Shown: positions 1 through 32,123 of the stretch, piece by piece
Layout of the letters: each line of letters begins with the position of its first letter
Position numbering within the stretch: the stretch's first letter is position 1
Assembly (NCBI GenBank): GCA_963555815.3
Contig: CAUVWX020000001.1
Span: 988,633 to 1,052,632 of the forward strand
DNA from: a bacterium
Lineage (GTDB): Bacteria > UBA8248 > JACPRG01 > G963555815
Direction of reading: 5' to 3'
DNA length: 64,000 nt
Program-made: the position numbers and the translations under genes
The notes under the pieces: model-generated
Databases searched by the model: none
Told to the model about the DNA's origin: nothing
The model's input: the letters and a program-made list of their open reading frames with translations, nothing else

Positions 1-1767
1 CGTTCGGAGGTCGTGGGACAGATCGCCGTGGAGAGGGGACGCCCCCACCTCATCCCCCTGGATAAGCGCGTGGGTCCGGCCATTGGGATTGTGAAAGGGG
101 GGGAGGGAGGCGCAAGAAACGGTGAGATGGCCGTCTTGCACATTACCCATTACCCCAAGGACCGAATCCCCGCCCGGGGCAAGATTGTCCGCGTCATCGG
201 CCCCCCAGATAGCCTCGAGGCCGAGGTCGATATGGTGGCGACTCAATTCGACCTCGCCCAAGAATTTCCAAAGAAGGTTTTTAACGAGGTGTCCCGCTTA
301 GCGGCTCCGGGACCGTCCGAGATTCGATCGCGAGAGGATCTGCGGGGTCTCCTCATGGTGACCATCGACGGGGAGACCGCTTGGGATTTTGACGACGCCG
401 TCTCTCTCGAAAGAATCCCAAAACCTCTGCAGGGGTTTCGGCTTGGGGTCCACATCGCCGACGTCTCTCACTACGTTCAAAAGGGGGGTGCCTTGGACCT
501 CGAGGCGAGGGGTCGGGGGACGAGCGTCTATTTCCCCGGACAAGCCCTCCCCATGCTTCCTCCGCGTCTCAGCGCGGACCTCGCCAGCCTCCTTCCGGAA
601 AAAAACCGCCTCGCCCTGTCGGTCTTCATCGATTATTCCCCCGAAGGAGAGCGCCTGGGGTACCGGTTTTCAGAAAGTGTCGTCCGGGTCCGCCACCGTC
701 TTACCTACGAGGGGGTAGCCCGGTTCCTCGCCGGGAGGCCCCCCAGCGACTTCCCCCGCGACAAAGCCCTCGGCGGTGTCCTGAGGGACATGGCAGACCT
801 GGCGGCTCGCCTCAGGGAGCGACGCATCGCTCAGGGCAGTCTGGATTTTGAGATCCCCCAGGCAGAGGTCCTTGTGGATGAAAAGGGTCGAGTGCAGGGC
901 GTTCGGCGCGCCCCGAGGACTGAGGCCGGGAACATCATCGAGGATTTCATGCTGGCGGCGAACCAGACCGCAGCGGAACACCTGGAGGGATTGAAGATTC
1001 CGGCTTTATACCGAGTCCACGAGCCCCCCGGCCCCAAGGACCTGGAAGAGGCGGAACTCTTCCTCCACAACCTCCGCTATCGCATCCCGGGGCTCAAGTC
1101 GAAACCGTCTGAGGCCATTCGAACCGCCCTTGAGATTGCGAGAGGAAAGCCTGAGGAGCCCCTCGTCCATATGGCCCTCCTCCGGGCGATGAAGCTCGCC
1201 CGCTACGCCGATGAAAATCTTGGCCACTTCGGCCTTCACTTCTCCCACTACACCCACTTCACCTCCCCTATCCGCCGCTATCCGGACCTCGTGGTTCACC
1301 GCCTCCTGCGGCTCTCGGGCCTTGGACAAGGACGAAAAAGCCCTCGACGCCCGCTGGACACCCTTGCCGGAGAAATGGCGATCATCGCCCTGGAGAGTTC
1401 CAAGAGGGAGAGAAACGCCGAAGCGGCCTCGAGGGCCATGGTGGATTATAAACGGGCAAGGTTCATGGAGAAGAAGGTGGGGGAGGTTTTTAAGGGGGCG
1501 GTGAGCGGCGTGGTCTCCTCAGGCTTCTTTGTCTCCCTGGATGACCCCTTTGTGGAGGGTTTTATCCGGGTTCGAAATCTTGAGGATGACCATTATGTCT
1601 TTGACGCGGGGACACAATCTCTCACAGGGCGGCGGGGACAAAAGACCTTTCGGCTGGGAGACCGGGTGACAGTCCGAGTGGCCCGGGTAGACGCCCTGAG
1701 GCGTGAGATCGACTTTGAGCTTTTGAAGAGCCCTGCTGCGTCAGGCGCTCGCCGGAAAGGGGAATAA
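1..1767 (+). CDS. rnr: Ribonuclease R (RNB exoribonuclease with C-terminal S1 domain), 5' end cut by window edge
   Basis: Frame is open from base 1. The track ORF 13-1767 shows RNB-domain motifs (TIDGETAWDFDDAVS, HFGL..YTHFTSPIRRYPDLVVHR) and an S1-like C-terminus (GAVSGVVSSGFFVSL). Confidence 0.9.
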   Translation, partial: RSEVVGQIAVERGRPHLIPLDKRVGPAIGIVKGGEGGARNGEMAVLHITHYPKDRIPARGKIVRVIGPPDSLEAEVDMVATQFDLAQEFPKKVFNEVSRLAAPGPSEIRSREDLRGLLMVTIDGETAWDFDDAVSLERIPKPLQGFRLGVHIADVSHYVQKGGALDLEARGRGTSVYFPGQALPMLPPRLSADLASLLPEKNRLALSVFIDYSPEGERLGYRFSESVVRVRHRLTYEGVARFLAGRPPSDFPRDKALGGVLRDMADLAARLRERRIAQGSLDFEIPQAEVLVDEKGRVQGVRRAPRTEAGNIIEDFMLAANQTAAEHLEGLKIPALYRVHEPPGPKDLEEAELFLHNLRYRIPGLKSKPSEAIRTALEIARGKPEEPLVHMALLRAMKLARYADENLGHFGLHFSHYTHFTSPIRRYPDLVVHRLLRLSGLGQGRKSPRRPLDTLAGEMAIIALESSKRERNAEAASRAMVDYKRARFMEKKVGEVFKGAVSGVVSSGFFVSLDDPFVEGFIRVRNLEDDHYVFDAGTQSLTGRRGQKTFRLGDRVTVRVARVDALRREIDFELLKSPAASGARRKGE

Positions 1768-1974
1768 ATCTCTTCAAGACCCCGTCGGGGAAAACGCGGA
1801 CGGAAGGGGACTTTTCATCCATCTCGCCGGAAAAAGCGCCCCACCTTTCGACGCCCTTCGGGCACGAGGGGGAGATAAAGAGTGGGGCTCACGGCGGGAG
1901 CGTCAATCTCAGATGAGACTCTCCATTGAAAAACCCTCCGGATATCCCTATGTTTTCTAAGGGTGGTGAATGAA

Positions 1975-2439
1975 ATGGCACGAGGACAGAAGTTTATCTG
2001 TATGAATAAGAAGGCCCTCCACGATTACCACGTGGAGGAGTCCATCGAGGCGGGAATCGCCCTGCGGGGGACGGAGGTCAAATCCCTCCGCGCAGGGCGG
2101 GCCCACCTCAAGCACAGCTACGCCGAGCCTGTGGGGGATGAGATCTTCCTCGTCGGCGTCCACATCGCCCCCTATGAAGGGGGAAGCTATAATAACCATG
2201 ATCCGGAGCGCCGGCGAAAGCTTCTCCTCCACCGACACCAGATCAGGCGTCTTGCCGGGAGGGTGACGGAGAAGGGTTTCACCCTCGTTCCATTGAAGAT
2301 GTATTTCAGTCGTGGGCGTGCCAAGGTAGAGATAGCCATCGCCAAGGGGAAGCACACCTACGACAAGCGGGAAACCTTGAAGCGAAAGGAGGCCGAGAGG
2401 GAAGTGGAACGGGCCTTCAAGGAGAGTAGGAGACGCTAG
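1975..2439 (+). CDS. smpB: SsrA-binding protein SmpB
   Basis: Track ORF 1963-2439. The ATG at 1975 gives MARGQKFI.NKKALHDY..IEAGIALRGTEVKSLR, a typical SmpB N-terminus. The gene lies directly upstream of the tmRNA gene. Confidence 0.92.
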   Translation: MARGQKFICMNKKALHDYHVEESIEAGIALRGTEVKSLRAGRAHLKHSYAEPVGDEIFLVGVHIAPYEGGSYNNHDPERRRKLLLHRHQIRRLAGRVTEKGFTLVPLKMYFSRGRAKVEIAIAKGKHTYDKRETLKRKEAEREVERAFKESRRR

Positions 2440-2462
2440 AGCTCTCTTCCTCGGAGATTCAA

Positions 2463-2821
2463 GGGGGCGACCTGGTTTCGACGGGGGTACTGGAAGTCCG
2501 GGCTGCATGCCGAGGTGCCGTTGGCTCGTAAAACAAACGGCAAACTAATAACTGCCGACGCAGAGTTGGCTCTCGCCGCTTAATAAGTGGTGGGCGCCCT
2601 GCTGGTCCGAGCCCGTAGGGCTGGATTAGGGTGTCATAAAATCGGGATAGCCCAAGGGGCTGGGCCTCGGGGCCCTTCGGGTGAAACTAAACCGCAGGAT
2701 AGCCTCTCTCCTATCCCCGCCGGGGGAGCTGAGAGGGGCGAAAGAAAAATCCCGGCTAAGCGTGTAGATGCCCGAGACTGAAGACCTTCGGACGGGGGTT
2801 CGATTCCCCCCGCCTCCACCA
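2463..2821 (+). ncRNA. ssrA: tmRNA (transfer-messenger RNA)
   Basis: 5' GGGGGCGACCTGGTTTCGACGGGGG pairs with 3' ...GGACGGGGGTTCGATTCCCCCCGCCTCCACCA, forming a tRNA-Ala-like acceptor stem with G3:U70 and a T-arm. The internal tag reading frame ends ...GCC GAC GCA GAG TTG GCT CTC GCC GCT TAA TAA (..ADAELALAA). Confidence 0.93.
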
Positions 2822-2957: not shown

Positions 2958-2986
2958 TTGACAGTGAAAGGATAGGTGCATATACT
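2958..2986 (+). promoter_or_regulatory. Sigma70-like promoter, TTGACA-17 nt-TATACT
   Basis: TTGACA at 2958-2963, an exact 17-nt spacer, and TATACT at 2981-2986. It lies upstream of the DUF3179-like and AhpD-like gene pair. Confidence 0.6.
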
Positions 2987-3257
2987 CTCTTACATGAGGA
3001 GGATCAAAGGATTTAGCAGTAAAGAGGGGCTGAAGAGCCCCGTCCCGACCCACCGGTGACGCATATGGAACGCTTTAAGAAACAAGCTTCTGGACCGGCC
3101 TACGTTGGGTTTGGCCTTCCAAAATGGGCTTGACAGTCGAGGGGCAACAGGATTAACGTTACCGCATACAGTCAACGGTGTCGGGAACGTCTCTGGCAGG
3201 GCTTGGGAACGTGTTTGCCAAGCCGAGATGGGAGAAACTTGTAGAGGAGGGCAACGC

Positions 3258-5129
3258 GTGATTGTCAGACGATACAAGGACGAGGAAGAGAAAAAGAAAA
3301 TCATCGCCAATACGGCCCAGAAGTATAAAAAAGAGTGTGGCTTCTTCGTGACAGACCGCATCCGTACGAATGTTATGTACGGGCTGACCGACGCGAAACG
3401 CGTTTCCGCCAAACAATTCGCCCCCTTGATGAAGGACGACGATCGTGTGGTGGGCATCTCCCATAAAGGGCAATCCGTGGCTTACCCCTACTTCATCACA
3501 GATTACTACCACTATATGAACGATGTGATCGGAGGGGACCCCGTCGTCTTCCAGACCTGAGAGAGGTGCGGGTCTGGCACCTCGTTCAGCGGTCAGCTGA
3601 ACAATAAAAGATTTAATTGGGACCTATCGGGACTTCTCCTGGCCCAGCAGGGAGGGTGGGACTCAGAAACTGAAAGTTCCTGGTGGAGCATTGACGGCCT
3701 TGCCTATGACGGCCCTCTGAAGGGCACGATGCTGGATTACCTCGCCTACGTCCACTGCACTTGGGCGGAGTGGCTGGAGCTCCATCCTGACACCGAGGTC
3801 ATGGACCTTCCCGACGATCCGAAGCATAAAGATCCCCGAGGCGGTCACGCCTCCGAAGAGTACTGGGAGCGGCCGGGGATTGACAAGTTCATGATCGCGG
3901 GACTTGTGTCCGGTGAGTTAGACCGCCAGCTTCCAGAGAACGTCACGTGCATAGGGGTAAACCTCCCTCAGGGTGTCAAGGCATATCCGGTCAGAGACAC
4001 TAAGCTTGAGGGGGGCCTCACCCATGACAAGATAGGCGATGTGCCCCTGCTCATCATCTCTGGGCCTGCGACGGACAGCTACTTTACAGGGGTTTTCGAC
4101 CGAAGGGTCGACGGCAAGGTGCTAGAGTTCAAGCCCCAGAAGGGCACCGGGGTGGTCTGGAACATGGTGGACAATGAGACGGGGACCGTGTGGAACCCCG
4201 AAGGGCTTGCTATTGACGGGAAGCTCAAGGGCAAGCAGCTCACTCCGGTCCACTACGGTTTCTGTCGGTGGCATTCGTGGATCTACACCCACCCCACAAC
4301 CGAGATTTACAGGACCAAGCGGACAGAGGCCCCGGACATCGAAGAGGGCGTCTTCGCGCAGCTCCTGAAAGGGCTTCACGACGCGAAGTACAAGGTGAAG
4401 GTCAAGCGCGAGATCATCAACGACGCGCGTCTCCTTCAGACCGACCGGGGGCTAATCCTGGACATCAACGGCGACCGCTTACTCCTCCACCACTTCACCA
4501 ATGAGACGGCTTGCCGAGACTACTGCGCCCTCACGCCCCATATACTCCGTGCCGGGTGGTACGTCCTCCAATCTGACCCCCCGGATCAGTTCACCGATAT
4601 CGCCACGAATATTACGAGGCTCCCGGCCGAGGAGATCAACTGGTCGAAGCTCCTCGAGGACGAAAAGTTCGTCCAGGCCTTCCAAAGTGCCGCTTCCAAG
4701 GAGACGGGGCCGGACTACCCCGGATTCAGCGATCTCGTCGGGGCTATCAACCAGGGCGGGTACGACTTCTTCCCCGGGGCTCCTGAGCTCCACTTTGAGA
4801 TCCCGTACCTGTTGCCCTGGGGGACCTATATTGGCCTGCGCCCCGGGGAGGAAAATATGTTCTTGGCCACCATTAATGCTTCGGACCACTTTGAAATCCA
4901 CCGGTGGAAGACAGAAGAGGGGGCGGAAGAGTACAAGAACTACGCCAAGCACGCCTTCCGTGTCGGACGCTATGTCTTCCAACACGTCCCCTTGGCCGCC
5001 TACCAAATCCAGATGTTCCGGATGGGGGATAAGCCCGACGACAAGGTGATGTGGTCGGATATTTTGGAGGACGAGGACTTCAAGAACATTGTCCGCTCCG
5101 TCGTCGAGGGTGCACCAGCTAAGGCTTAA
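3258..5129 (+). CDS. Tandem DUF3179-like domain protein with in-frame TGA (3558-3560) in a UxxC motif; candidate selenoprotein
   Basis: Track ORFs 3105-3560 and 3729-5129 share a frame, and 3561-3728 has no stop. The junction reads GGDPVVFQT-TGA-ERCGSGTSFS, matching the DUF3179 core ..VTYCPLCgtg.vF as I recall it. The GTG at 3258 follows GGAGG at 3246-3250; the start is uncertain (3105-3258). Confidence 0.75.
3563..3602 (+). promoter_or_regulatory. Candidate bacterial SECIS (two adjacent hairpins downstream of TGA 3558)
   Basis: Hairpin 3563-3583 is GAGGTGC/GCACCTC with loop GGGTCTG. Hairpin 3584-3602 is GTTCAGC/GCTGAAC with loop GGTCA. Both loops contain GGTC, as in the E. coli fdhF SECIS apical loop. 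Confidence 0.55.
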
Positions 5130-5373
5130 TGACGAGGAGGGTTTCGCGAAGGACGTGATTCGCTCCGTTGTGGAGGAGTGAAAGAAGACGAGATTTCTCT
5201 TCTGAGGGTCTTCGGCCGCAGAGGTTATTTTCGGCGGCTGGAGGCCCTCAAGTGTTTCAGGGGCCGGATGGCCGGGGCCTGTTTAGCCTGCGAGGCAGGG
5301 GACCCCGGCGTCGGCGCGGTCGGCGTGACGGGACAGACGTCAGGATGCGCGGGACCATCTAGGGAGAAAAGAA

Positions 5374-6021
5374 ATGGCCTGGATTAAAACCATTGGGGAG
5401 TCTGAGGCCACTGGCGAGCTCAAGGCGCATTATGACAGGGCGCGCAAGACGCGGGGGTTTGTGCCGAACATTCAGAAGATCAACAGCCTCAAGCCTGAGC
5501 TCTTGAGTCGATACTACCACTTCTCCCGCGCGGTGACCTTCGGAGGCAGCAGCCTGGGGCGAAAGCGGGAGGAGATGATAGCGGTCACCGTCTCAGCGCT
5601 CATCAAATGCAGGTATTGAACGGTCTCTCACGCGGAGGTCCTCCGCAAAGTCATCTGGAACGACGCCAGGCTGGCGGCCAAGGCCAGCGGCGCAAAGGAG
5701 GGAATGAGTCAAAGCGACGCCAATAAGCTGGTCCTGGCGCTCAAGGAGGATTATCGGAATGCGGGCCTGGCCCCTCCGGACGTCGCCATGCTGGAGTACG
5801 CAGAGAAGATCACCTTCCATCCCACCGACATTACAGAAACGGACATAAAAAACCTGCGGACCCACGGATTCAACGATCAGCAGATCCTGGAGATCGCGGC
5901 GGTTGCGTCCCTCTTCAATTATCTGACTCGGATGGCCAACGCCCTGGGGGTGGAGCCGGACAAGGATGATTTCACCGATGACCCGCAGATCCTGGCCAAA
6001 TTGTCTGAGGGGCTGAAATAG
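5374..6021 (+). CDS. AhpD/carboxymuconolactone decarboxylase-family peroxidase-related protein with in-frame TGA (5617-5619) in a CxxU motif; candidate selenoprotein
   Basis: Track ORFs 5374-5619 and 5704-6021 share a frame with no stop in between. The junction SALIKCRY-TGA-TVSHAEV fits the AhpD-like signature CxxCxxxH, with the second Cys replaced. The N-terminus MAWIKTI..EATGELKAHYD resembles the peroxidase-related CMD subfamily. GGGAG lies 8 nt upstream of the ATG. Confidence 0.8.
5632..5646 (+). promoter_or_regulatory. Candidate bacterial SECIS hairpin
   Basis: GCGGAG-GTC-CTCCGC (or a 5-bp stem with loop GGTCC). The stem starts 13 nt after TGA 5617-5619. Confidence 0.55.
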
Positions 6022-6130: not shown

Positions 6131-7924
6131 TTACATCGCGCACTCGCCTTCGCCGCGCTCGAGCTTGTAAGGTTCGTCCTTCCCCCAGTCCTTGTAAAGG
6201 TCCAGGGCGTCCCCTTCCGGGGGCTCCAGCACCTTGGTGATGTCTTTGAGCACTGCTTCGAACCCCTTCGGTCCTACGCGGTCGACAAAATCGTTGAAGG
6301 TCTCGCCCGAATTCCGGTTCTCCTGATAGTAGATGAGTATCTTCCGGAGGGCTTCGGGCGTGCGCTTGGCCGGCACACGAGAGCGAATTCGCTTGCCGAT
6401 CCGCGTGGCTCCATCTGCATAGGAGCCTCCCAGGAAGACCTCGTATGCGGGCACCTGATTACCGTTGCCGGCGCCCTTAACGGCCGCCCCGTGGAAGCCG
6501 ATGTTGGCCAGATGGTGCTGGCCGCAGCTGTTGGGGCATCCGCTCATCTTGACGTGGAGGTCTTGGATGAACGGGTCCTTGATGATCTCGTCCTCTAGGA
6601 GCGATTTTCGCAGCGCATGGGCGAGTCCCATGGAGGAGGTAATCCCCAACTTGCAGCTGTCGGTGCCGGGGCAGGAGGTGACGTCGGTGATGGTATGGAC
6701 CTCGGTCTCCGCCAGGCCGATGTCCTCCAACTCCCTCCAGAGGGGGTAGAGTGTCTCCTCGCGCACCCACCGGAAGATGAGGTTTTGTTGATGGGTGGTG
6801 CGGGCTCGGCCCCCAGCATACTCCCTGGCGATCCGGGCCAGGGAGAAGAACTGTTCCGTCCGAATGTCCCCAAGGGGGACCTTCACGAAGACGGCGTGAT
6901 AGCCCTTCTGCCTTTGGGGTAGGACGTTGGTGTCCCGCCAGTGGTGAAAGGCCCGGTTGTTCCCGTTGGGCTGTTCGATATGGGCGGGGACGCCGGGGGC
7001 GCTGGCGGACTCGTCCTCCAGAAAGAGATAGGGCTCCGGGTCGATGGGCTCCTGGGCCCAGGGTTGCTGCAGTTCCTCGTCTGTCATTTCCCGGAAGGCG
7101 TCGATTCCGATGCGGTCGATGAGGAACTTGATCCGGGCCTTCATCTTGTTCTTTCGGAGCTCGTCCGAGCGGTGGAAGATGCGGATCACCGCCTCGCTGA
7201 CCTTCAGGTAGTCGGAGATCGGCACGAAGTCGTAGAGCGTATAGGCAACCCTCGGGAGGATGGAGAGACCGCCCCCGGTGACGATCCGGAAACCCCTGGA
7301 CTGCTGACCGTTTTCACTTCGAGTCTGCGCCAGAAATCCCAGATCGTGGATCCCGGTGATGGCACAGTCGGTCGGGCAGCCAGAGAAGGCCACCTTGAAC
7401 TTTCTCGGCAGGGTCTGCGTAAAGGGGTGCCGGAGGAAGTAGCGGGCGAAGGCCCCGACGTATGGCGTCACGTCGAAGATCTCGCCTTGGCAGACCCCGG
7501 CCATGGGGCAGCTCGTGACGTTGCGGACAGTGTTCCCGCAGGCCTCCCGGGTGCTGAGCCCCGCCTCCCCGATAACGCGCATGACTTCGGGCGTGTTTTC
7601 AAGCGGGATGAAGTGGAGCTGGATATTCTCCCGGGTAGTGATGTGCCCCTTCCCAAGGGGGACATAGTCCCTGACGACACGTCCCAGGGCCTCCAGCTGC
7701 TCCGCCGTCAAACCCCCAAAGGGGATCTTGATCCGGAACATCTGGGCATCGGCCTGCCTTTGGCCGTAGACCCCTTGGCAGAGTCGAAAGGCGGTGAACT
7801 TCCCCGGGTCCCACTCCCCCTGACGAAAACGCGTGGCCTCGGTCTCGAAGTCGTCGATCTCTTCGGGGAGGACCGGGAGAACGCCTTTCTGCCCCTCGAA
7901 GTTTTTGACGTGCTTGAATTCCAT
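6131..7924 (-). CDS. sir: Assimilatory sulfite reductase (ferredoxin-type, siroheme/4Fe-4S NirA/Sir family)
   Basis: The track ORF 6131-8116 was trimmed to the ATG at 7924 (MEFKHVKNFEG) to avoid overlap with cysH. It shows nitrite/sulfite reductase repeats and Cys-cluster motifs (TSCPGTDSCKLG, SGCPNSCGQHH) and lies immediately downstream of cysH. Confidence 0.88.
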   Translation of the reverse strand: MEFKHVKNFEGQKGVLPVLPEEIDDFETEATRFRQGEWDPGKFTAFRLCQGVYGQRQADAQMFRIKIPFGGLTAEQLEALGRVVRDYVPLGKGHITTRENIQLHFIPLENTPEVMRVIGEAGLSTREACGNTVRNVTSCPMAGVCQGEIFDVTPYVGAFARYFLRHPFTQTLPRKFKVAFSGCPTDCAITGIHDLGFLAQTRSENGQQSRGFRIVTGGGLSILPRVAYTLYDFVPISDYLKVSEAVIRIFHRSDELRKNKMKARIKFLIDRIGIDAFREMTDEELQQPWAQEPIDPEPYLFLEDESASAPGVPAHIEQPNGNNRAFHHWRDTNVLPQRQKGYHAVFVKVPLGDIRTEQFFSLARIAREYAGGRARTTHQQNLIFRWVREETLYPLWRELEDIGLAETEVHTITDVTSCPGTDSCKLGITSSMGLAHALRKSLLEDEIIKDPFIQDLHVKMSGCPNSCGQHHLANIGFHGAAVKGAGNGNQVPAYEVFLGGSYADGATRIGKRIRSRVPAKRTPEALRKILIYYQENRNSGETFNDFVDRVGPKGFEAVLKDITKVLEPPEGDALDLYKDWGKDEPYKLERGEGECAM

Positions 7925-7958
7925 CCTCAAGTCTTCCTTTGGGAAACGGCTATCCAGC

Positions 7959-8663
7959 TCATCTGTGAAGTCCACATTCGGTCTTCGCAAACCCGCGCCA
8001 GCGGCCCGCACGAGCGTCCTCTCCGAGCTTGACAGGCGAGGTGCAGTGGGTGCATCCGATACTGGGATAGTTCTGGTCGTGGAGGGAGTTGTAGGGGACG
8101 TCGTGGGCCTGGACATAGTCCCACACGTCCGCTGAGCTCCATCGGGCCAGCGGGTTCACCTTGACGAGCTCGAACCTTTGGTCCCACTCCACGATCCCGA
8201 TATTGGCCCGACTTGGGGCCTGGTCGCGACGGATCCCGGTAATCCAGGCTTCGAGGCCGGAGAGGGCCTGCCGAAGGGGCAGGACCTTTCTCAAGTGGCA
8301 GCAGCGGTCCGGGTCGTGCCTATAAAGCTCGGGTCCATGTTCGATGGCTTGAGCCTCGGGCGAGAGCGAGGAGCGATAGGTCACTGGCCGGACGCCGTAT
8401 TTCTCCACGATCCGGTCCCGGAGCTCGTAGGTCTCAGGGAACAGAAATTCGGTGTCCAGGTAAAACACCCTGAGGTCAGGCTCGATCTGAACGGCCATAT
8501 CCACTAGAGCCATCCCCTCGGCCCCAAAACCGGTGGCCAGGGCGATCTGGGGGTGAAACTCCCCTAGGGCCCAAGCCAGTACGGCCTGAGGACCCTTTTC
8601 TTCGAACTCACGCCCTAACTCTGCGACCAACTCCGGCGATAGCTTTTTACTGGTGTGATTCAT
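7959..8663 (-). CDS. cysH: APS/PAPS reductase (Fe-S type CysH; CC..CxxC plus C-terminal ECGLH)
   Basis: 234-aa ORF with the PP-loop family fold, DPDRCCHLRKV, SIGCTHCT and a C-terminal KTECGLHR motif. Confidence 0.9.
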   Translation of the reverse strand: MNHTSKKLSPELVAELGREFEEKGPQAVLAWALGEFHPQIALATGFGAEGMALVDMAVQIEPDLRVFYLDTEFLFPETYELRDRIVEKYGVRPVTYRSSLSPEAQAIEHGPELYRHDPDRCCHLRKVLPLRQALSGLEAWITGIRRDQAPSRANIGIVEWDQRFELVKVNPLARWSSADVWDYVQAHDVPYNSLHDQNYPSIGCTHCTSPVKLGEDARAGRWRGFAKTECGLHR

Positions 8664-8790
8664 GGATGGCCTCGCAAAGCTGGGTGATACCGTAAATGGC
8701 GATTGAGTTTTGAAGGTCTCGTCTCATCCGGATTTTTCAAACACTCCGCGAAAGACTCCCCCCGCACATAAAGATGCGGGGAGAAGTATG

Positions 8791-8901
8791 TTAACTAGTT
8801 GTTTTTAAAGGAAAAAACGAACGGGGTGGTCCTTTTCAGGACCCGCTACAGATATAGCCTAGATGTCCGTGAAGAGAAGAATCGTGGGGGGAGCCCCCGT
8901 A
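8791..8901 (-). promoter_or_regulatory. Conserved 111-nt 5'-leader element, copy A (candidate cis-regulatory RNA upstream of cysH)
   Basis: 100 of 111 nt are identical to 9880-9990 in the same orientation relative to the downstream gene. The RNA sense contains GGACA..GGGUCCUGAAAAGGACC, where two GGAC segments compete for one GUCC, followed by a U6 tract. Confidence 0.5.
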
Positions 8902-8970
8902 ACTGAGAGGCAAATTCTTCGAATATGCTGAGTAGATAACCATCATTCCCTTCCTCAGTCTGAATAACCT

Positions 8971-8999
8971 ACCTTAACTTCGAGGCAGAACCCTGTCAA
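8971..8999 (-). promoter_or_regulatory. Promoter of the cysH-sir leader (TTGACA-17-TAAGGT)
   Basis: On the minus strand, TTGACA is at 8999-8994 and TAAGGT at 8976-8971. The 19-nt block GAACCCTGTCAAGCAAAAA is identical in copy B. Confidence 0.5.
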
Positions 9000-9061
9000 G
9001 CAAAAAAATCAAACAATTCGCCTCAAAAGGGCCGAAAATTCTTTAGGGCATCCCTCGTCAC

Positions 9062-9826
9062 TTAGAGGGCCATTCTTAGGCCTGAGAGCAAGAGGACTCC
9101 AGCCAAGATTGCCCGAAGAGCCCTGATGGGGACCCTTGAAGCCAGGCGAGCGCCCAAAAGGACGCCCGGGATCGATCCCACGAGGATCTGGGCCGCGAGG
9201 GTGACGTCCACGGTCCCCAGGGAGAAATGGCCCATCCCAGCCAGTCCGAGAAGCAGGACCGCGTGGGCGATGTCTGTCCCCACGACCTCCCTGACGGTGA
9301 GCGAGGAGCTGACCAGAAGGAGGGCCACGATGATTGTCCCCGAGCCCACCGAAGTCACTGTGACCAGGAATCCCACGGCAGCGCCCGTCACAATCAAGGC
9401 GCGATTCGAGAGGAGAAGATCCTTCTTGCGCCGGATAAAGTCCGGGGCCTTCCTGCCAAGAAAGATTAAGAAGGCGATCAGGATGAGCGTAAAGCCCAAG
9501 GCGTGGCGGACGATCTCATCCAATCGGGCCCCGTTACTCCCTTTGAGGACGGCGAGAAAGAGGATCCCGACCGCCGCTCCCGGCAGGCTCCCCATCGCCA
9601 GTCGCTTCACCATGTTGAAATTGATGTTCGCCTGGCGATAGTGTTGGAACGCCCCAAAGACCTTCGTTACAAATCCGTACAAGAGGTCTGTCCCCACGGC
9701 CACGACGGGGCGCACGCCCATCAGGATCAAAAGGGGCGTCATCAGGGCGCCGCCCCCCATTCCCGTGAGCCCCACTAATATCCCAACACCGAAGCCCGCG
9801 AGGGCGATATAAAGGTCAAACTCCAT
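9062..9826 (-). CDS. TauE/SafE family sulfite/organosulfonate exporter-like membrane protein
   Basis: The track ORF 9062-9859 was trimmed to the ATG at 9826 (MEFDLYIALAGFGVGILVGLTGMGGGALMTP), which is preceded by GGAG. It is a polytopic membrane protein with the Gly-rich TauE-type motif. Confidence 0.82.
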   Translation of the reverse strand: MEFDLYIALAGFGVGILVGLTGMGGGALMTPLLILMGVRPVVAVGTDLLYGFVTKVFGAFQHYRQANINFNMVKRLAMGSLPGAAVGILFLAVLKGSNGARLDEIVRHALGFTLILIAFLIFLGRKAPDFIRRKKDLLLSNRALIVTGAAVGFLVTVTSVGSGTIIVALLLVSSSLTVREVVGTDIAHAVLLLGLAGMGHFSLGTVDVTLAAQILVGSIPGVLLGARLASRVPIRALRAILAGVLLLSGLRMAL

Positions 9827-9879
9827 CCAAACACTCCACGAAGAATTCTCGCCGCACAAAAAAGTGGCGAAAAATTCAG

Positions 9880-10146: not shown

Positions 10147-11130
10147 CTAAGGCGAAGACATGCGCCAGAGGTGGACCGTGCCGTTCTCTGAGGCTGAGGC
10201 GATGAAGTGGCCATCAGGCGAAAAGGCAATCGAGTGGACCCAGCCCCCATGCCCCTCAAAGAGCTTCACTTCCAGCCCGGTGGACCTATCCCAAACGCGG
10301 ACCGTCTCGTCCACTGACCCAGAGGCCAGTCGTTTGCCATCGGGTGAGAAGGCCACGGAGGAGATAAGATTTTCATGCCCGTGAAAGATTCCCGCATCCT
10401 TCGTAAGGAGTCCCACTTCCTCTGTGTTGATCATGTGTATAACGGTGACCTGATCGGACGAAGAGGCCAGGAGTTTGCCGTCGGACGAAAACGAGACGGA
10501 AAAGATTCGCCATCCATGGTTCGTCATTTTCATCATTTGCAGCTTTGATGAGACGTCCCAGATGCGGACGCTGTTGTCAAATGACCCAGAGGCCAGGAGT
10601 TTGCCATCGGGTGAAAAGACAACAGAACGGACCTGGCGAGTATGTCCCTCGAGACGTGCTATTTCCTTCCCTGTGGACACATCCCAGAGGCGGATAGTGT
10701 TGTCAGCTGACCCAGAGGCCAGAAGACGGCCATCAGGTGAGAAAGCGACGGAGTTGACCGACTTTCCGTGCCCCAGCAGTCTCTTTATTTCTTGCCCTGA
10801 GGACACATCCCAGAGGCGGATAGTGTTGTCCCATGACCCTGTGGCCAGGACGCGGCCGTCGGGCGAGAAGGAGACGGCACCGACCATCATCTGATGGCCA
10901 TCAAGTTCTCTTAGCTCCTTCCCTGAGGAGACCTCCCAGAGGCGAACGGTTGTGTCACTAGACCCTGAGGCGACGAGGCGACTGTCAGGCGAAAAGGTGA
11001 CTGCGTGGACTGAGCCCTCGTGCCCATTGAGGACCTGGGCATCTTCATCTCCAGCGAAGGCGAGAGACGCCGCGAGCAGGACAGGAAAAATGAAAATCAA
11101 GGCCTGAAGGGGCCACCGACGCGTGGGCAT
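10147..11130 (-). CDS. Exported WD40-repeat beta-propeller protein
   Basis: 327 aa with seven units of the type GH...V.SVAFSPDG..LASGS.D.T.RLWD. The N-terminus MPTRRWPLQALIFIFPVLLAASLAFA looks like a signal peptide. GAGGAG lies upstream of the ATG. Confidence 0.88.
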   Translation of the reverse strand: MPTRRWPLQALIFIFPVLLAASLAFAGDEDAQVLNGHEGSVHAVTFSPDSRLVASGSSDTTVRLWEVSSGKELRELDGHQMMVGAVSFSPDGRVLATGSWDNTIRLWDVSSGQEIKRLLGHGKSVNSVAFSPDGRLLASGSADNTIRLWDVSTGKEIARLEGHTRQVRSVVFSPDGKLLASGSFDNSVRIWDVSSKLQMMKMTNHGWRIFSVSFSSDGKLLASSSDQVTVIHMINTEEVGLLTKDAGIFHGHENLISSVAFSPDGKRLASGSVDETVRVWDRSTGLEVKLFEGHGGWVHSIAFSPDGHFIASASENGTVHLWRMSSP

Positions 11131-11273
11131 TTTAGTCTCCTCTAATTTCTATATCAGAAGGCTTCCCGCCTGGATTCCAGCTTCGAGTGAATCACAGTGC
11201 AAATTGTAACCCAAGGTTGACCGTGGGGGCAAACCCGATGGGTTATCTACTGCCTTGGACCATCAGAAGGCCC

Positions 11274-12125
11274 CTACGGGGAAACCGTCCACAGGCGAAT
11301 GGAGCTGTCACCCGTTCCTCTAGCGAAGTGACGGCCATCTGGCGAGGAGGCGGACGAGTCGATCCAATCTACGCCCCCCTCGGGTCTCTCCGCCGGTTCC
11401 CCCGTTGCGACCTCCCAGAGATGGATGATGATGATATGACTCCCCTCCCCCGAGGCGAGGAGACGGCCGTCGGGCGAGAAGGTGACGGCGTTGACCCCGT
11501 GTCTATGCCCCCCCATGCTTCTTAATTCTCTCCCTGTGGACACATCCCAGAGGCGGGCGGTCTTGTCCTCTGACCCAGAGGCCAGGAGACGGCCATCGGG
11601 AGAAAAAGAGACGGAGAAGACGGCCTTCCTGTGCCCGCTCAGAAGTCCAATGTGTCTCCCGGTTGGGACCTCCCAGAGGCGTATCGTCTTGTCCCTTGAC
11701 CCCGAGGCAAGGAGGCGACCGTCAGGAGAGAAGGAGAGGGAGTAGATCCAGTCTCCATGGCCCTCGAGGTTCCCCAACCCTTTCCCTGAGGACACGTCCC
11801 AGAGACGAACGGAGCTGTCCTTTGACCCTGAGGCGAGGAGGCGACCGTTGGGCGAAAACCGAGTGGAGTAAACCCAGTCGCTATGCCCCTCCAGGCTTCT
11901 CAATTCTTTCCCTGAGGACACATCCCAGAGACGAACGGAACCATCCGTTGACCCTGAGGCGAGAAGGCGACCGTCGGGAGAGAAGGAGAGGGAGAGGACC
12001 GGGCCCTCATGCCCTTTCAGGATCCGGACCTCCTCCTCCGACTCCGCGGGAAAGGCAGAGGGTCTCGCCAGAAGGATGAGAACGAGGATAATCAAAATTC
12101 GAAGAGGCCACCGACGTGCGCGCAT
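11274..12125 (-). CDS. Exported WD40-repeat beta-propeller protein (paralog)
   Basis: The track ORF 11274-12179 was trimmed to the ATG at 12125 (MRARRWPLRILIILVLILLARPSAFPA), which is preceded by GGAGGAGGG. The WD40 units resemble those of 10147-11130. Confidence 0.85.
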   Translation of the reverse strand: MRARRWPLRILIILVLILLARPSAFPAESEEEVRILKGHEGPVLSLSFSPDGRLLASGSTDGSVRLWDVSSGKELRSLEGHSDWVYSTRFSPNGRLLASGSKDSSVRLWDVSSGKGLGNLEGHGDWIYSLSFSPDGRLLASGSRDKTIRLWEVPTGRHIGLLSGHRKAVFSVSFSPDGRLLASGSEDKTARLWDVSTGRELRSMGGHRHGVNAVTFSPDGRLLASGEGSHIIIIHLWEVATGEPAERPEGGVDWIDSSASSPDGRHFARGTGDSSIRLWTVSP

Positions 12126-12286
12126 CTCACCCTCCTCCGTTTTCATTAGGCTTGGGGAGTTCCCTCGTGATATGGCCACTGGACAAATCGTAACATAAAT
12201 CGTAGCACATCATGGCGGTCCCGGCGACCCGGCGGGCGTCCACGACTATCTTGAACCAGCGCATCACCCCGAGTATCCTTGATCCC

Positions 12287-14551: not shown

Positions 14552-16520
<1,969 letters not shown>

Positions 16521-16623
16521 ACCGGAGATAAAGATAGCATAAACCCAAAAAAGTGACAAGAGGCGAGGTGTCAAAACAACAAAAGCAAGAGGTTTGCCCC
16601 TTCGATTCGGCGGTGGACACACT

Positions 16624-30870: not shown

Positions 30871-30976
30871 TCGAATATGCGTTCTCCGAAGCCACTGAGA
30901 GTCTGGATTGACCAGCTCCCTTGGCCGATAGGGTTAGGCGGGTGACTGTCTGGCCTCCCGTGTTTGGAAAGGAGAG
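30871..30976 (+). promoter_or_regulatory. Molybdenum cofactor (Moco) riboswitch
   Basis: The 3' part GGCCUCCCGUGUUUGGAAAGGAGAGC closely matches the E. coli moaA leader CGCCUCCCGUAUCUGGAAAGGUGUAC as I recall it. The 5' UUCUCCGAAGCC can pair (CUCC/GGAG) with the SD-containing 3' end. It lies directly upstream of moaA. Confidence 0.75.
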
Positions 30977-30983
30977 CGTTGAC

Positions 30984-32123
30984 TTGGAATACGTGGGTCA
31001 GCGTTCAGTTTTTTCTAAGCGCTGGCCCTTTTATTTTGGAGTGAGGAGTGAAGAGATGCCGCGTGACTTAGTAGATGAGCGAATGAACGCCAGCCTGGCC
31101 GAGTTGCCCGTGCTGCCAGCCATAGCGGAGAAGGGCCGGATGTCGGACGGGTTCGGACGGCATATCACCTACATCCGGGTGTCCGTCACGGACCGTTGCA
31201 ACATCCGGTGTGTCTACTGTATGCCCGAGGAGGGGATGCCGTGGATCCCCAAGGAAAATTTCCTCACCTTCGAGGAATTGGCCACCATCCTCGGGGTGAT
31301 GGGGGAAATGGGGCTGGAGAAGGTCCGCGTCACCGGAGGCGAGCCTTTATTGCGAAGGGGCCTTCCCGAATTTATCAAGATGGTCCGCAACGTCCCCTCC
31401 GTGAAGCAGATTGCCCTCTCGACGAATGCCATCCTTTTTGAGGAACAAGGTCCTGCCCTCGTGGAGGCTGGCCTGAACCAGATCAACATTAGTCTCGACA
31501 CCTTCCAAGAGGAGAAATTCGTTCGGATCTCGCGAAGGGACTATCACAACAAGGTGATGCGAGGGATCGCTAAGGCCGAGGAGCTCGGGATCAATCCCCT
31601 GAAGATCAACTGCACCGTGCTCAAGGGGTACAACGACGACGAGATCCTCGACTTCGCCCACGTCACCCGCGAGCGCCCCTGGCATGTCCGGTTCATCGAG
31701 TTCATGCCCTTGGAGGGGAGCAGGGACCTGCAAAAGGACACCTATATATCCAACCAGGACATCCTCGACCGCCTCATGGAGGATGGAGAGCTCCAGCCGG
31801 TCGACCCGTTCGACAACGGGGGCCCGGCGGTCTATTACCAGTACCCGGGGGCGCCGGGGACCGTTGGCTTCATCGACCCCCTCAGCCACAATTTCTGCGC
31901 CCGGTGCAATCGGATGCGTCTGACAGCTCAGGGGGACCTTCGCCCCTGCCTTTTCTCGGACATTGAAGTCCCCTTGGGAGAGGTGCTGAGAGAGGGTGCC
32001 TCGCAGCAAGAGCTGAAGGACCTCATCCATCAGGCCCTTGGGGTGAAGCCCGAGAGACACTATCTTGTTGAAAAAGGGGCTGATGCGAGTCAGCTGATCG
32101 CCCTCTCCCAGGTGGGTGGCTGA
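30984..32123 (+). CDS. moaA: GTP 3',8-cyclase MoaA (radical SAM)
   Basis: It carries the radical-SAM motif VTDRCNIRCVYCMPEEG and C-terminal MoaA Cys motifs (CARCNRMRLT). The TTG at 30984 is 9 nt after AAGGAG. The alternative ATG at 31140 (MSDGFGRHITYIRVS) would give the usual length of about 327 aa. Confidence 0.88.
   Translation: MEYVGQRSVFSKRWPFYFGVRSEEMPRDLVDERMNASLAELPVLPAIAEKGRMSDGFGRHITYIRVSVTDRCNIRCVYCMPEEGMPWIPKENFLTFEELATILGVMGEMGLEKVRVTGGEPLLRRGLPEFIKMVRNVPSVKQIALSTNAILFEEQGPALVEAGLNQINISLDTFQEEKFVRISRRDYHNKVMRGIAKAEELGINPLKINCTVLKGYNDDEILDFAHVTRERPWHVRFIEFMPLEGSRDLQKDTYISNQDILDRLMEDGELQPVDPFDNGGPAVYYQYPGAPGTVGFIDPLSHNFCARCNRMRLTAQGDLRPCLFSDIEVPLGEVLREGASQQELKDLIHQALGVKPERHYLVEKGADASQLIALSQVGG

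What the first reader, a model, noticed from the sequence alone, without database searches (positions are those of the whole stretch)
3258..5129. Two track ORFs are one gene: a DUF3179-like protein with in-frame UGA in a UxxC motif (candidate new selenoprotein family member)
ORFs 3105-3560 and 3729-5129 are in the same frame, and 3561-3728 contains no stop. The only interruption is TGA 3558-3560. Read through, the junction is GGDPVVFQT-[TGA]-ERCGSGTSFSGQL. This aligns with the DUF3179 core as I recall it (..VPVaVTYCPLCgtg.vF.R..) and places the TGA on the first Cys of the CxxC pair. Downstream family landmarks are also present: DSETESSWW, GPLKGT.L and WAEWLELHPDTEV. Two 7-bp hairpins follow immediately. 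The first is 3563-3583 with loop GGGUCUG, and the second is 3584-3602 with loop GGUCA, 33 nt from the U of UGA. Both loops carry the GGUC of the E. coli fdhF SECIS loop. The protein continues with a second, Cys-less DUF3179-like domain (about 3942-4310) and two copies of an uncharacterised C-terminal repeat of about 70-100 aa. I am not aware of DUF3179 being an established selenoprotein family, but I cannot check that here.
Basis: partly seen in the sequence, partly recalled or inferred. Interest (0 to 1): 0.85.

Follow-up and report, generated by a model that had tools for sequence, protein, structure and literature searches.

The report
DUF3179 selenoprotein gene split by annotation
Two neighbouring "genes" are really one 623-residue protein whose in-frame UGA is most likely read as selenocysteine, but proteins of this family (DUF3179) are already listed as selenoproteins, so this is a well-supported new member, not a new kind.

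Summary
ORFs 3105-3560 and 3729-5129 share a frame and are interrupted only by TGA 3558-3560. The real gene is GTG 3258 to TAA 5129 (623 aa, Sec at residue 101).

- The read-through protein matches Pfam DUF3179 (E 7e-35). The TGA aligns with the first, invariant Cys of the family's CxxC motif.
- The TGA is kept in 11 distinct orthologous genes (45-94% identity), with protein conservation on both sides. More distant relatives with the same architecture have Cys there (CERC).
- A hairpin 23 nt downstream (3584-3602, loop GGUCA) meets all published bacterial SECIS criteria. It is present in all 11 orthologs and is conserved at synonymous sites (p about 5e-5). The first hairpin (3563-3583) is specific to this lineage and lies too close to the UGA.
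- TGA is otherwise a normal stop in the window.
- A second selenoprotein gene (CMD/AhpD-like, CxxU, TGA 5617) lies 245 bp downstream.
- No Sec machinery gene lies in the 64 kb, so that test remains open.

DUF3179 (motif UxxC/T) is already listed as a selenoprotein family in the 2022 and 2026 reviews, which cite Zhang & Gladyshev 2007. What may be new is the subfamily: no signal peptide and a rare C-terminal tandem repeat. Its function is unknown. A selenol/thiol redox role is inferred.

The parts
2958..2986 (+). Sigma-70-like promoter candidate (TTGACA-17-TATACT, 11 of 12 matches), about 270 nt upstream of the start codon
   Evidence: This is a consensus match only, and one such site is expected by chance in the region.
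3244..3250 (+). Shine-Dalgarno-like GAGGAGG, 7 nt before GTG 3258
   Evidence: Read directly from the sequence.
3258..5129 (+). Complete selenoprotein gene: 623 aa, GTG start, TAA stop, Sec at codon 101
   Evidence: One frame with a single TGA. Ortholog N-termini (M[KTI][VI].R[YF]..EE.K) align to this start. Public gene callers split it into 100-aa and 466-aa ORFs.
3402..4301 (+). DUF3179 (PF11376) domain, aa 49-348 counted from the GTG start
   Evidence: E 7.1e-35, 121 bits against a cut-off of 27, one stretch covering profile positions 13-292 of 292.
3558..3560 (+). In-frame TGA = Sec101, the first position of U-E-R-C
   Evidence: It aligns with the invariant first Cys of CxxC. The TGA is kept in 11 distinct orthologous genes, and Cys (TGY) occupies the position in L017-L021.
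3567..3569 (+). TGC = Cys104, the second residue of the UxxC motif (candidate resolving Cys)
   Evidence: Invariant in alignments A1 and A2. The codon is TGC in 11 of 11 orthologs.
3563..3583 (+). Hairpin 1 (7 bp, loop GGGUCUG). It is lineage-specific and probably not the SelB-binding element.
   Evidence: -11.9 kcal/mol. Only 3 bp are conserved across orthologs. Its loop starts 9 nt after the UGA, outside the 16-37 nt range of the bSECIS model.
3584..3602 (+). Hairpin 2 = predicted bacterial SECIS: GUUCAGC-GGUCA-GCUGAAC
   Evidence: The hairpin has 7 bp, a 5-nt loop starting GG, a 30-nt spacing from the UGA and -9.7 kcal/mol, so it meets all four published criteria. It is present in 11 of 11 Sec orthologs with only wobble changes. 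The F, G and L codons inside it never vary, against 1 of 76 invariant residues elsewhere (p = 5e-5). It is absent from the Cys homologs.
4341..4709 (+). C-terminal repeat unit 1 (aa 362-484)
   Evidence: Internal BLASTP match to unit 2, E 3e-9. No Pfam family matches. Only 67 representatives among 1.84 billion proteins match the two-unit C-terminal region.
4710..5126 (+). C-terminal repeat unit 2 (aa 485-623)
5374..6021 (+). Neighbouring second selenoprotein gene: CMD/AhpD-like, C-R-Y-U-x-x-x-H, TGA at 5617-5619, with hairpin GCGGAG-GUC-CUCCGC at 5632-5646
   Evidence: Searches give the frame. Pfam CMD matches at E 3.6e-10 across the TGA. The TGA is kept in L010. The hairpin folds at -8.2 kcal/mol. 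CMD-like CxxU is a listed selenoprotein family. It shows that this genome recodes UGA at a second site.

Best explanation
Window 3258-5129 is a single gene for a 623-residue selenoprotein that carries no signal peptide or membrane anchor.

**Recoding (inferred mechanism).** During translation, the UGA at 3558-3560 is recoded to selenocysteine. The hairpin at 3584-3602 lies in the coding sequence 23 nt downstream (7-bp stem, loop GGUCA). It acts as the bacterial SECIS that recruits SelB-GTP-Sec-tRNA(Sec) to the ribosome paused at the UGA.

**What is shown.**
- The reading frame is continuous across the TGA.
- The protein belongs to DUF3179.
- Sec sits at the invariant first Cys of the CxxC motif.
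- Sec and Cys alternate at that position among relatives.
- The hairpin is conserved at the RNA level.

**What is inferred.**
- SelB dependence of the recoding.
- The chemistry of the product. Sec101 replaces the one invariant Cys of the DUF3179 motif H-x3-D-x(10-11)-[C/U]-x-x-[C/T]. It is therefore most likely the attacking nucleophile of a selenol/thiol redox centre that closes a selenenylsulfide with Cys104.

The substrate is unknown. The role of the rare C-terminal tandem repeat is unknown.
For: - **Single frame.** There is one stop, a TGA.
- **Family.** PF11376 matches at E 7e-35 across the TGA.
- **Sec position.** The U column is Cys in 10 of 10 and 29 of 29 Cys homologs. The second position is C in 28 and T in 1, matching the published UxxC/T motif.
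- **TGA conservation.** The TGA is retained in 11 distinct orthologous genes at 45-94% aa identity, from MAGs labelled Nitrospinota, Dehalococcoidia and unclassified. Invariant residues lie on both sides, and the first downstream start codon falls at different places. It is also present in two more divergent members.
- **Cys forms.** Relatives with the same long architecture have Cys (CERCQSG) in five other phyla.
- **SECIS criteria.** Hairpin 2 meets all four bSECIS criteria and is present in 11 of 11 orthologs.
- **Synonymous constraint.** Of 83 invariant degenerate residues, only 5 use a single codon. Three are inside the hairpin and one is Cys104. The hypergeometric p is 5e-5.
- **No global reassignment.** TGA is an ordinary stop in 14 of 33 genes checked and is absent from 12,986 codons of Pfam-supported genes.
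- **Second site.** A Cys-aligned in-frame TGA with its own hairpin lies in the adjacent CMD-like gene.
Against: - No selA, selB or selD motif and no tRNA-Sec gene is present in the 64-kb window or in any fetched locus. The genome's Sec machinery is therefore unverified.
- No Rfam SECIS family matches, although bacterial SECIS elements are poorly covered there.
- The hairpin stem shows only wobble changes and no compensatory double changes. Structural covariation is therefore absent, and the RNA-level support is invariance.
- The 30-nt spacing is at the long end of the accepted range.
- The redox role is inferred only from the motif. The fold is not thioredoxin-like, and no solved structure resembles it significantly.
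Confidence: 0.88

Rival explanations
1. The TGA is a true stop. The locus is a pseudogene, a sequencing error, or two separately translated genes: a 100-aa N-terminal fragment and a 466-aa protein starting at ATG 3729.
For: Every public gene caller annotates it this way. No Sec machinery was seen in the window.
Against: - The same TGA is present in independent assemblies and in 11 distinct orthologous genes down to 45% identity.
- The 56 codons between the TGA and ATG 3729 are conserved as protein (ERCG.G..FSG.L...W..G..AQ...D..T.S.WW). The first downstream start codon differs between orthologs.
- The Pfam domain runs straight across the stop.
Confidence: 0.03
2. The UGA is read through, but not as selenocysteine. 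Possible routes are near-cognate Trp or Cys insertion, or another SECIS-independent recoding event.
For: The Sec machinery is unverified. The hairpin could in principle stimulate generic read-through.
Against: - The position is the invariant catalytic-type Cys of the family, and its relatives alternate Cys and TGA. This is the signature used to define selenoproteins.
- The hairpin satisfies the SelB-type bSECIS model, including GG at the start of the loop.
- The family is already classed as a selenoprotein family.
- A second Cys-aligned TGA lies next door.
Confidence: 0.05
3. This rival concerns function only. Sec101 and Cys104, together with the conserved His85 and Asp89, bind a metal in a Rieske-like beta fold. 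They do not act as a selenenylsulfide redox pair.
For: - The conserved pattern H-x3-D-x(10-11)-C-x-x-C has a His-to-Cys spacing close to that of the Rieske CxH-x(15-17)-CxxH ligands. The Rieske spacing is from my own knowledge.
- The only Foldseek matches with appreciable probability are Rieske domains: 8hn2_A at 0.93, 3gce and 5bok at 0.82, and NirD 4aiv at 0.72.
- An Idiomarina genome study lists a DUF3179 protein among its candidate electron-transfer proteins.
Against: - The Foldseek E-values are 0.2-0.35, which is not significant.
- No Rieske Pfam signal appears in 29 members even at E <= 10.
- The second Cys can be Thr, as in redox CxxT/S motifs. This is harder to reconcile with a fixed metal ligand.
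Confidence: 0.25

Closest known systems
DUF3179 domain-containing selenoprotein family (PF11376, motif UxxC/T), listed in Zhang et al. 2022 (PMC9312934) and the 2026 AEM review (PMC13188914), both citing Zhang & Gladyshev 2007 (PMC1976440)
   Same: Same Pfam domain, same Sec position (the first residue of UxxC), Cys-containing homologs, and a stem-loop downstream of the UGA.
   Different: - This gene belongs to a longer subfamily of about 615-625 aa. It has no signal peptide or membrane anchor and carries a rare C-terminal tandem repeat of about 260 aa that is not in Pfam.
- I could not compare it with the reviews' example accessions. I do not know whether they belong to this subfamily.
Ordinary Cys-type DUF3179 proteins (for example P0011-P0039)
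   Same: Same domain and the same conserved residues: H, D, CxxC, G, D, T.S.W and HP.T.
   Different: - They are 350-425 aa long and most have an N-terminal hydrophobic segment.
- They have Cys instead of Sec and lack the C-terminal repeats.
- One (P0010) is fused to thioredoxin/AhpC-TSA domains.
E. coli fdhF-type bacterial SECIS / bSECISearch consensus model
   Same: A hairpin inside the coding sequence just after the UGA, with a small apical loop starting GG(U) and a spacing and stability within the model's limits. The loop contains GGUC, as in fdhF (fdhF loop from my own knowledge).
   Different: - The stem starts 23 nt after the UGA, against about 11 nt in fdhF (my own knowledge).
- There is no bulged U.
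- In this lineage a second hairpin fills the spacer.
Thioredoxin-fold UxxC/CxxU selenoproteins (for example thioredoxin-like or AhpD/CMD-like)
   Same: Sec sits in a two-residue-spaced redox-type motif with a partner Cys. A CMD-like CxxU selenoprotein is the next gene on the same strand.
   Different: The predicted fold is beta-rich, with two halves that have a similar order of strands and helices. No significant match to any solved structure was found, so a thioredoxin relationship has no support.

Membership tests
Pfam PF11376 (DUF3179) | The whole-protein HMM score exceeds the curated gathering threshold. | tested here: met
   121.3 bits against a cut-off of 27, E 7.1e-35, profile positions 13-292 of 292 in one stretch spanning the TGA.
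Pfam PF11376 (DUF3179) | A conserved [C/U]-x-x-[C/T] motif after a beta strand, preceded by a conserved His and Asp. | tested here: met
   H85, D89, U101 and C104 align with H75, D80, C92 and C95 of P0011. The first Cys is present in 29 of 29 sequences.
Bacterial selenoprotein gene | An in-frame UGA aligned with Cys in homologs (Sec/Cys pair). | tested here: met
   TGA here, against TGY (Cys) in L017-L021 and in all the shorter Cys-type homologs.
Bacterial selenoprotein gene | The UGA is conserved in orthologs, with protein-level conservation on both sides. | tested here: met
   11 distinct genes, with invariant residues from R5 to F608.
Bacterial selenoprotein gene | A bSECIS hairpin with a 3-9 nt loop, a 4-16 bp stem, G in the first two loop positions, 16-37 nt from the UGA, and MFE <= -7.5 kcal/mol (PMC13188914, Fig. 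2). | tested here: met
   hairpin 3584-3602 has loop GGUCA (5 nt), 7 bp, a 30-nt spacing and -9.7 kcal/mol. It is conserved in 11 of 11 orthologs and constrained at synonymous sites.
Bacterial selenoprotein gene | The genome encodes selA, selB, selC (tRNA-Sec) and selD. | not testable with these tools
   None lies in the 64-kb window or the fetched loci. The rest of the roughly 2.1-Mb contig could not be read. Indirect support comes from a second Cys-aligned in-frame TGA gene at 5374-6021.
Bacterial selenoprotein gene | Selenium is demonstrated in the protein. | not testable with these tools
   This needs 75Se labelling or mass spectrometry.
Rfam SECIS families | A covariance-model match. | tested here: not met
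   no SECIS family matched, even at E <= 10 over 3400-5800.
Rieske-type iron-sulfur domain | CxH...CxxH ligands and a significant sequence or fold match. | tested here: not met
   Foldseek local hits have E 0.2-0.35. No Rieske Pfam hit appears in 29 members at E <= 10. The ligand pattern differs (H...CxxC).
Thioredoxin-fold oxidoreductases | A thioredoxin fold with CxxC at the N-terminus of a helix. | tested here: not met
   In the AlphaFold model of P0011 (pLDDT 89), the CxxC sits at the end of a strand in a beta-rich domain. No thioredoxin match was found in the listed Foldseek hits or in the PDB sequence search.

The most novel reading that the evidence does not exclude
The long DUF3179 proteins that lack a signal peptide and carry a C-terminal tandem repeat would form a distinct, undescribed enzyme family. 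About half of its known lineages appear to have switched the invariant Cys to Sec. Its beta-rich halves would be Rieske-like modules in which His85 and Sec101-x-x-Cys104 form a new selenium-containing metal or redox centre.
Probability: 0.12. Interest if true: 0.6.

Novelty: new member of a known kind. Interest (0 to 1): 0.3.

Why it matters
- **Annotation.** In every public copy I found, this gene is split into a 100-aa and a 466-aa hypothetical protein. The neighbouring CMD-like selenoprotein is split in the same way. Lineages related to Nitrospinota, Tectomicrobia and Methylomirabilota therefore carry selenoproteins that standard gene callers miss.
- **Biology.** DUF3179 has no known function. 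Sec sits exactly at its one invariant Cys, and the partner residue is Cys or Thr. This marks that residue as the reactive centre and gives a concrete handle for biochemistry.
- **SECIS example.** The conserved hairpin is a clean bacterial SECIS maintained by synonymous-site selection.
- **Limits.** None of this changes the known picture of selenoprotein families.

Tried and rejected
- **Rfam.** Neither the gathering nor the E-value search gave a SECIS hit.
- **NCBIfam.** No family matches the read-through protein.
- **PDB sequence search.** A DUF3179 profile found nothing.
  - I instead modelled a Cys homolog, which gave a good model (pLDDT 89).
  - I also modelled the window fragment 3561-5126, which gave a poor model (pLDDT 61).
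- **Foldseek against PDB.** Neither model gave a significant match. The Rieske resemblance is kept only as a lead and has no sequence support.
- **Sec machinery.** Motif scans for SelA, SelB and SelD found nothing. Pfam scans of 30 further window ORFs plus the two neighbouring genes found no selenium-metabolism family. ARAGORN on the window and 21 loci found no tRNA-Sec.
- **Hairpin 1 as SECIS.** Rejected, because it is not conserved and lies too close to the UGA.
- **Global TGA reassignment.** Rejected.
- **Antisense hits.** The 'CxxU' motif hits in L006 and L015 lie antisense to the DUF3179 gene and were dismissed as spurious.
- **Organism.** It could not be named. ClpX is only 73-77% identical to named MAGs of Nitrospinota, Tectomicrobia and Methylomirabilota.
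Full report
**1. The observation**

The sequence and its translation confirm that ORFs 3105-3560 and 3729-5129 lie in the same frame. The 2,028-nt stretch holds one stop, TGA 3558-3560, in the context ...GGDPVVFQT-TGA-ERCGSGTSFSGQL.

Orthologs start with M[KTI][VI].R[YF]..EE.K. This corresponds to GTG 3258, which is preceded by GAGGAGG at 3244-3250.

Both 7-bp hairpins are present and together form the minimum-free-energy fold of 3558-3611. That fold has -24.5 kcal/mol and z = -4.5, and none of 200 shuffles folds as well.

**2. Family and the position of the TGA**

With Cys placed at the TGA, the protein matches Pfam PF11376 (DUF3179). The score is 121 bits against a cut-off of 27 (E 7e-35). 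The match is a single stretch covering profile positions 13-292 of 292 and running across the TGA. NCBIfam has no model for it.

In an alignment with ten Cys-type DUF3179 proteins, the TGA column is the first Cys of CxxC in all ten, and Cys104 is invariant. In a set of 29 Cys homologs, the first Cys is present in 29 of 29. The second position is Cys in 28 and Thr in 1. A His and an Asp upstream are nearly invariant.

An AlphaFold model of the homolog P0011 (pLDDT 89) shows two beta-rich halves with a similar order of strands and helices. The CxxC sits at the end of a strand in the first half.

**3. Is the TGA translated?**

The closest database proteins (P0001-P0009, 44-99% identity) all cover only the part after the TGA. 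Reading the DNA around them and around the hits in GTDB representative genomes gave the following results.

- The same T/G-TGA-GA[RC]-CGN-TGC-GG occurs in 11 distinct orthologous genes.
- They come from a 94%-identical species, a Nitrospinota MAG, a Dehalococcoidia MAG and several unclassified MAGs. Several of these genomes carry tandem or dispersed paralogs.
- Protein conservation is strong on both sides of the TGA, with invariant residues from R5 to F608.
- The first possible downstream start codon lies at different positions in different orthologs. Re-initiation is therefore not a conserved feature.
- Two more divergent members also carry the TGA: T-TGA-DAC in L023 and T-TGA-ERC in L024.
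- Five relatives with the same long architecture, at 30-34% identity, have TGY at this codon (C-E-R-C-Q-S-G). They are MAGs labelled Rubripirellula, Acidobacteriota, Lentisphaerales, Actinomycetota and Phycisphaerales.

This is the Sec/Cys alternation by which selenoproteins are recognised.

TGA is not reassigned globally. It ends 14 of the 33 genes checked, and none of 12,986 codons in Pfam-supported genes is TGA. A scan for in-frame TGAs flanked by long open frames gave only one other credible case, at 5617.

**4. The SECIS element**

The 2026 review gives four criteria for the bacterial SECIS model: a loop of 3-9 nt, a stem of 4-16 bp, G in the first two loop positions, and 16-37 nt between the UGA and the loop, with MFE <= -7.5 kcal/mol.

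| Feature | Hairpin 2 (3584-3602) | Hairpin 1 (3563-3583) |
|---|---|---|
| Sequence | GUUCAGC-GGUCA-GCUGAAC | loop GGGUCUG |
| Stem | 7 bp | 7 bp here, 3 bp in most orthologs |
| Loop | 5 nt, starting GG | 7 nt |
| Distance from UGA to loop | 30 nt | 9 nt |
| Free energy | -9.7 kcal/mol | -11.9 kcal/mol |
| Meets all criteria | yes | no (too close to the UGA) |
| Conserved in orthologs | 11 of 11 | this species and its 94% relative only |

The consensus fold of the 11 orthologs keeps hairpin 2 in every sequence. The only changes are two kinds of wobble change and a terminal A-C mismatch in two sequences. No pair shows a compensatory double change.

The stronger evidence comes from codon usage. 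Across the 11 orthologs, 83 alignment columns have an invariant amino acid with degenerate codons. Only 5 of these use a single codon. Three of the five are the Phe, Gly and Leu codons inside the hairpin, one is Cys104, and only 1 of 76 lies elsewhere. The hypergeometric p is 5e-5. The fifth loop base varies (A, U or G, giving Gln, Leu or Arg) while the stem stays intact.

The Cys-type relatives have no equivalent hairpin. Rfam has no matching family.

**5. Sec machinery**

No tRNA-Sec gene is present. There is no SelA, SelB or SelD motif. None of the window ORFs scanned against Pfam matched a selenium-metabolism family. The window covers about 3% of a roughly 2.1-Mb contig, so this test remains open.

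Indirect support lies 245 bp downstream on the same strand. ORFs 5374-5619 and 5704-6021 share a frame and are separated by TGA 5617, in the context K-C-R-Y-TGA-T-V-S-H. The read-through product matches Pfam CMD across the TGA (E 3.6e-10). CMD-like CxxU proteins are a listed selenoprotein family. This TGA is kept in the 94% relative and is followed after 12 nt by a hairpin, GCGGAG-GUC-CUCCGC, of -8.2 kcal/mol.

ClpX places the organism in an unnamed lineage. Its ClpX is 73-77% identical to those of MAGs named Nitrospinota, Tectomicrobia and Methylomirabilota/Rokubacteria. The 2026 review reports a very large predicted selenoproteome (63 genes) in a Methylomirabilota MAG.

**6. The rest of the protein**

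Residues 362-623 consist of two related units. Their cores (aa 406-477 and 543-614) are 28% identical, E 3e-9. They match no Pfam family.

An exhaustive HMMER search of 1.84 billion cluster representatives found only 67 relatives of this region.

- Those of about 595-650 aa carry C-[ED]-x-C near residue 90-105.
- About 15 of 460-510 aa begin just after the motif, as expected if a gene caller stopped at a TGA.
- Two of these shorter proteins were checked, and both have the TGA.

The repeat is thus essentially confined to this DUF3179 subfamily. Roughly half of its lineages appear to use Sec, but this proportion is an inference from protein lengths.

The protein has a hydrophilic N-terminus with no signal peptide or membrane segment, unlike most shorter DUF3179 proteins. 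The model of residues 102-623 was poor (pLDDT 61).

**7. Mechanism**

Shown:
- One gene.
- DUF3179 membership.
- Sec at the invariant Cys.
- A conserved SECIS-type hairpin under RNA-level constraint.

Inferred:
- SelB-dependent recoding.
- A redox role in which Sec101 attacks a substrate and is resolved by Cys104.

Three observations support the redox inference. Sec occupies the one invariant residue. The partner residue may be Thr, as in redox CxxT/S motifs. One homolog is fused to thioredoxin/AhpC-TSA domains, and a CMD/AhpD-like selenoprotein is the next gene.

A rival functional reading is a metal site in a Rieske-like fold. It rests only on non-significant Foldseek hits (E 0.2-0.35, probability 0.72-0.93) and on the His-to-Cys spacing. 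No sequence signal supports it, and no PDB sequence relative exists. I found no functional literature on DUF3179.

**8. Novelty**

[quoted passage not shown] Both credit Zhang & Gladyshev 2007 (PMC1976440). In that paper it is probably the family called OS_HP1, which is my inference.

The finding is therefore a correct, well-supported new member of a known selenoprotein family, mis-annotated as two ORFs in public data. The long subfamily without a signal peptide, with its C-terminal tandem repeat, may not have been described. That is a modest addition.

Noticed in passing
window 5374-6021 (+), TGA 5617-5619: A second split selenoprotein gene: a CMD/AhpD-like protein with C-R-Y-U-T-V-S-H. Pfam CMD matches across the TGA, and a hairpin GCGGAG-GUC-CUCCGC lies at 5632-5646. 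Public gene callers split it into 81-aa and 105-aa ORFs.
   Followed up: partly
window 5131-5181 (+): Immediately after the stop codon, a different frame encodes DEEGFAKDVIRSVVEE*. This resembles the gene's own C-terminus (EDEDFKNIVRSVVEG...). It may be a relic of a 3'-end duplication or of a lost tandem paralog.
   Followed up: no
L004/L016 (Dehalococcoidia MAG), L011/L014 (Nitrospinota MAG), L015/L022 (OZ245330): Several genomes carry two or three paralogs of the Sec-containing long DUF3179 gene, some in tandem. Each has the same TGA and hairpin.
   Followed up: partly
window 2958-2986 (+) and 2990-3257: A near-consensus sigma-70-like promoter (TTGACA-17-TATACT) lies about 270 nt upstream of the start codon. 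This implies a long leader with no Rfam match. The leader differs by indels between close strains (L001 against L002).
   Followed up: no
window 13-2821 (+): A trans-translation cluster: RNase R (13-1767), SmpB (1963-2439) and tmRNA (2463-2821, tag ADAELALAA), directly upstream of the selenoprotein gene.
   Followed up: no
window 16434-16525 (-) and 30872-30990 (+): A TPP riboswitch lies upstream of thiC (14552-16303, minus strand). A Moco riboswitch overlaps the predicted 5' end of a MoaA-like radical SAM ORF (30921-32123), whose true start is probably further downstream.
   Followed up: no
window 6131-9859 (-): A sulfur-assimilation cluster on the opposite strand: sulfite/nitrite reductase (6131-8116), PAPS reductase (7959-8663, overlapping it) and a TauE/SafE sulfite exporter (9062-9859).
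   Followed up: no
window 10147-12179 (-): Two adjacent bacterial WD40 beta-propeller proteins (326 and 300 aa) with very strong WD40 repeat scores.
   Followed up: no
L008 1885-2388: In one ortholog locus, a DsbA-like thiol-disulfide oxidoreductase gene lies just upstream of the Sec-DUF3179 gene. The neighbours are otherwise not conserved (ABC transporters, nitrile hydratase, luciferase-like).
   Followed up: no
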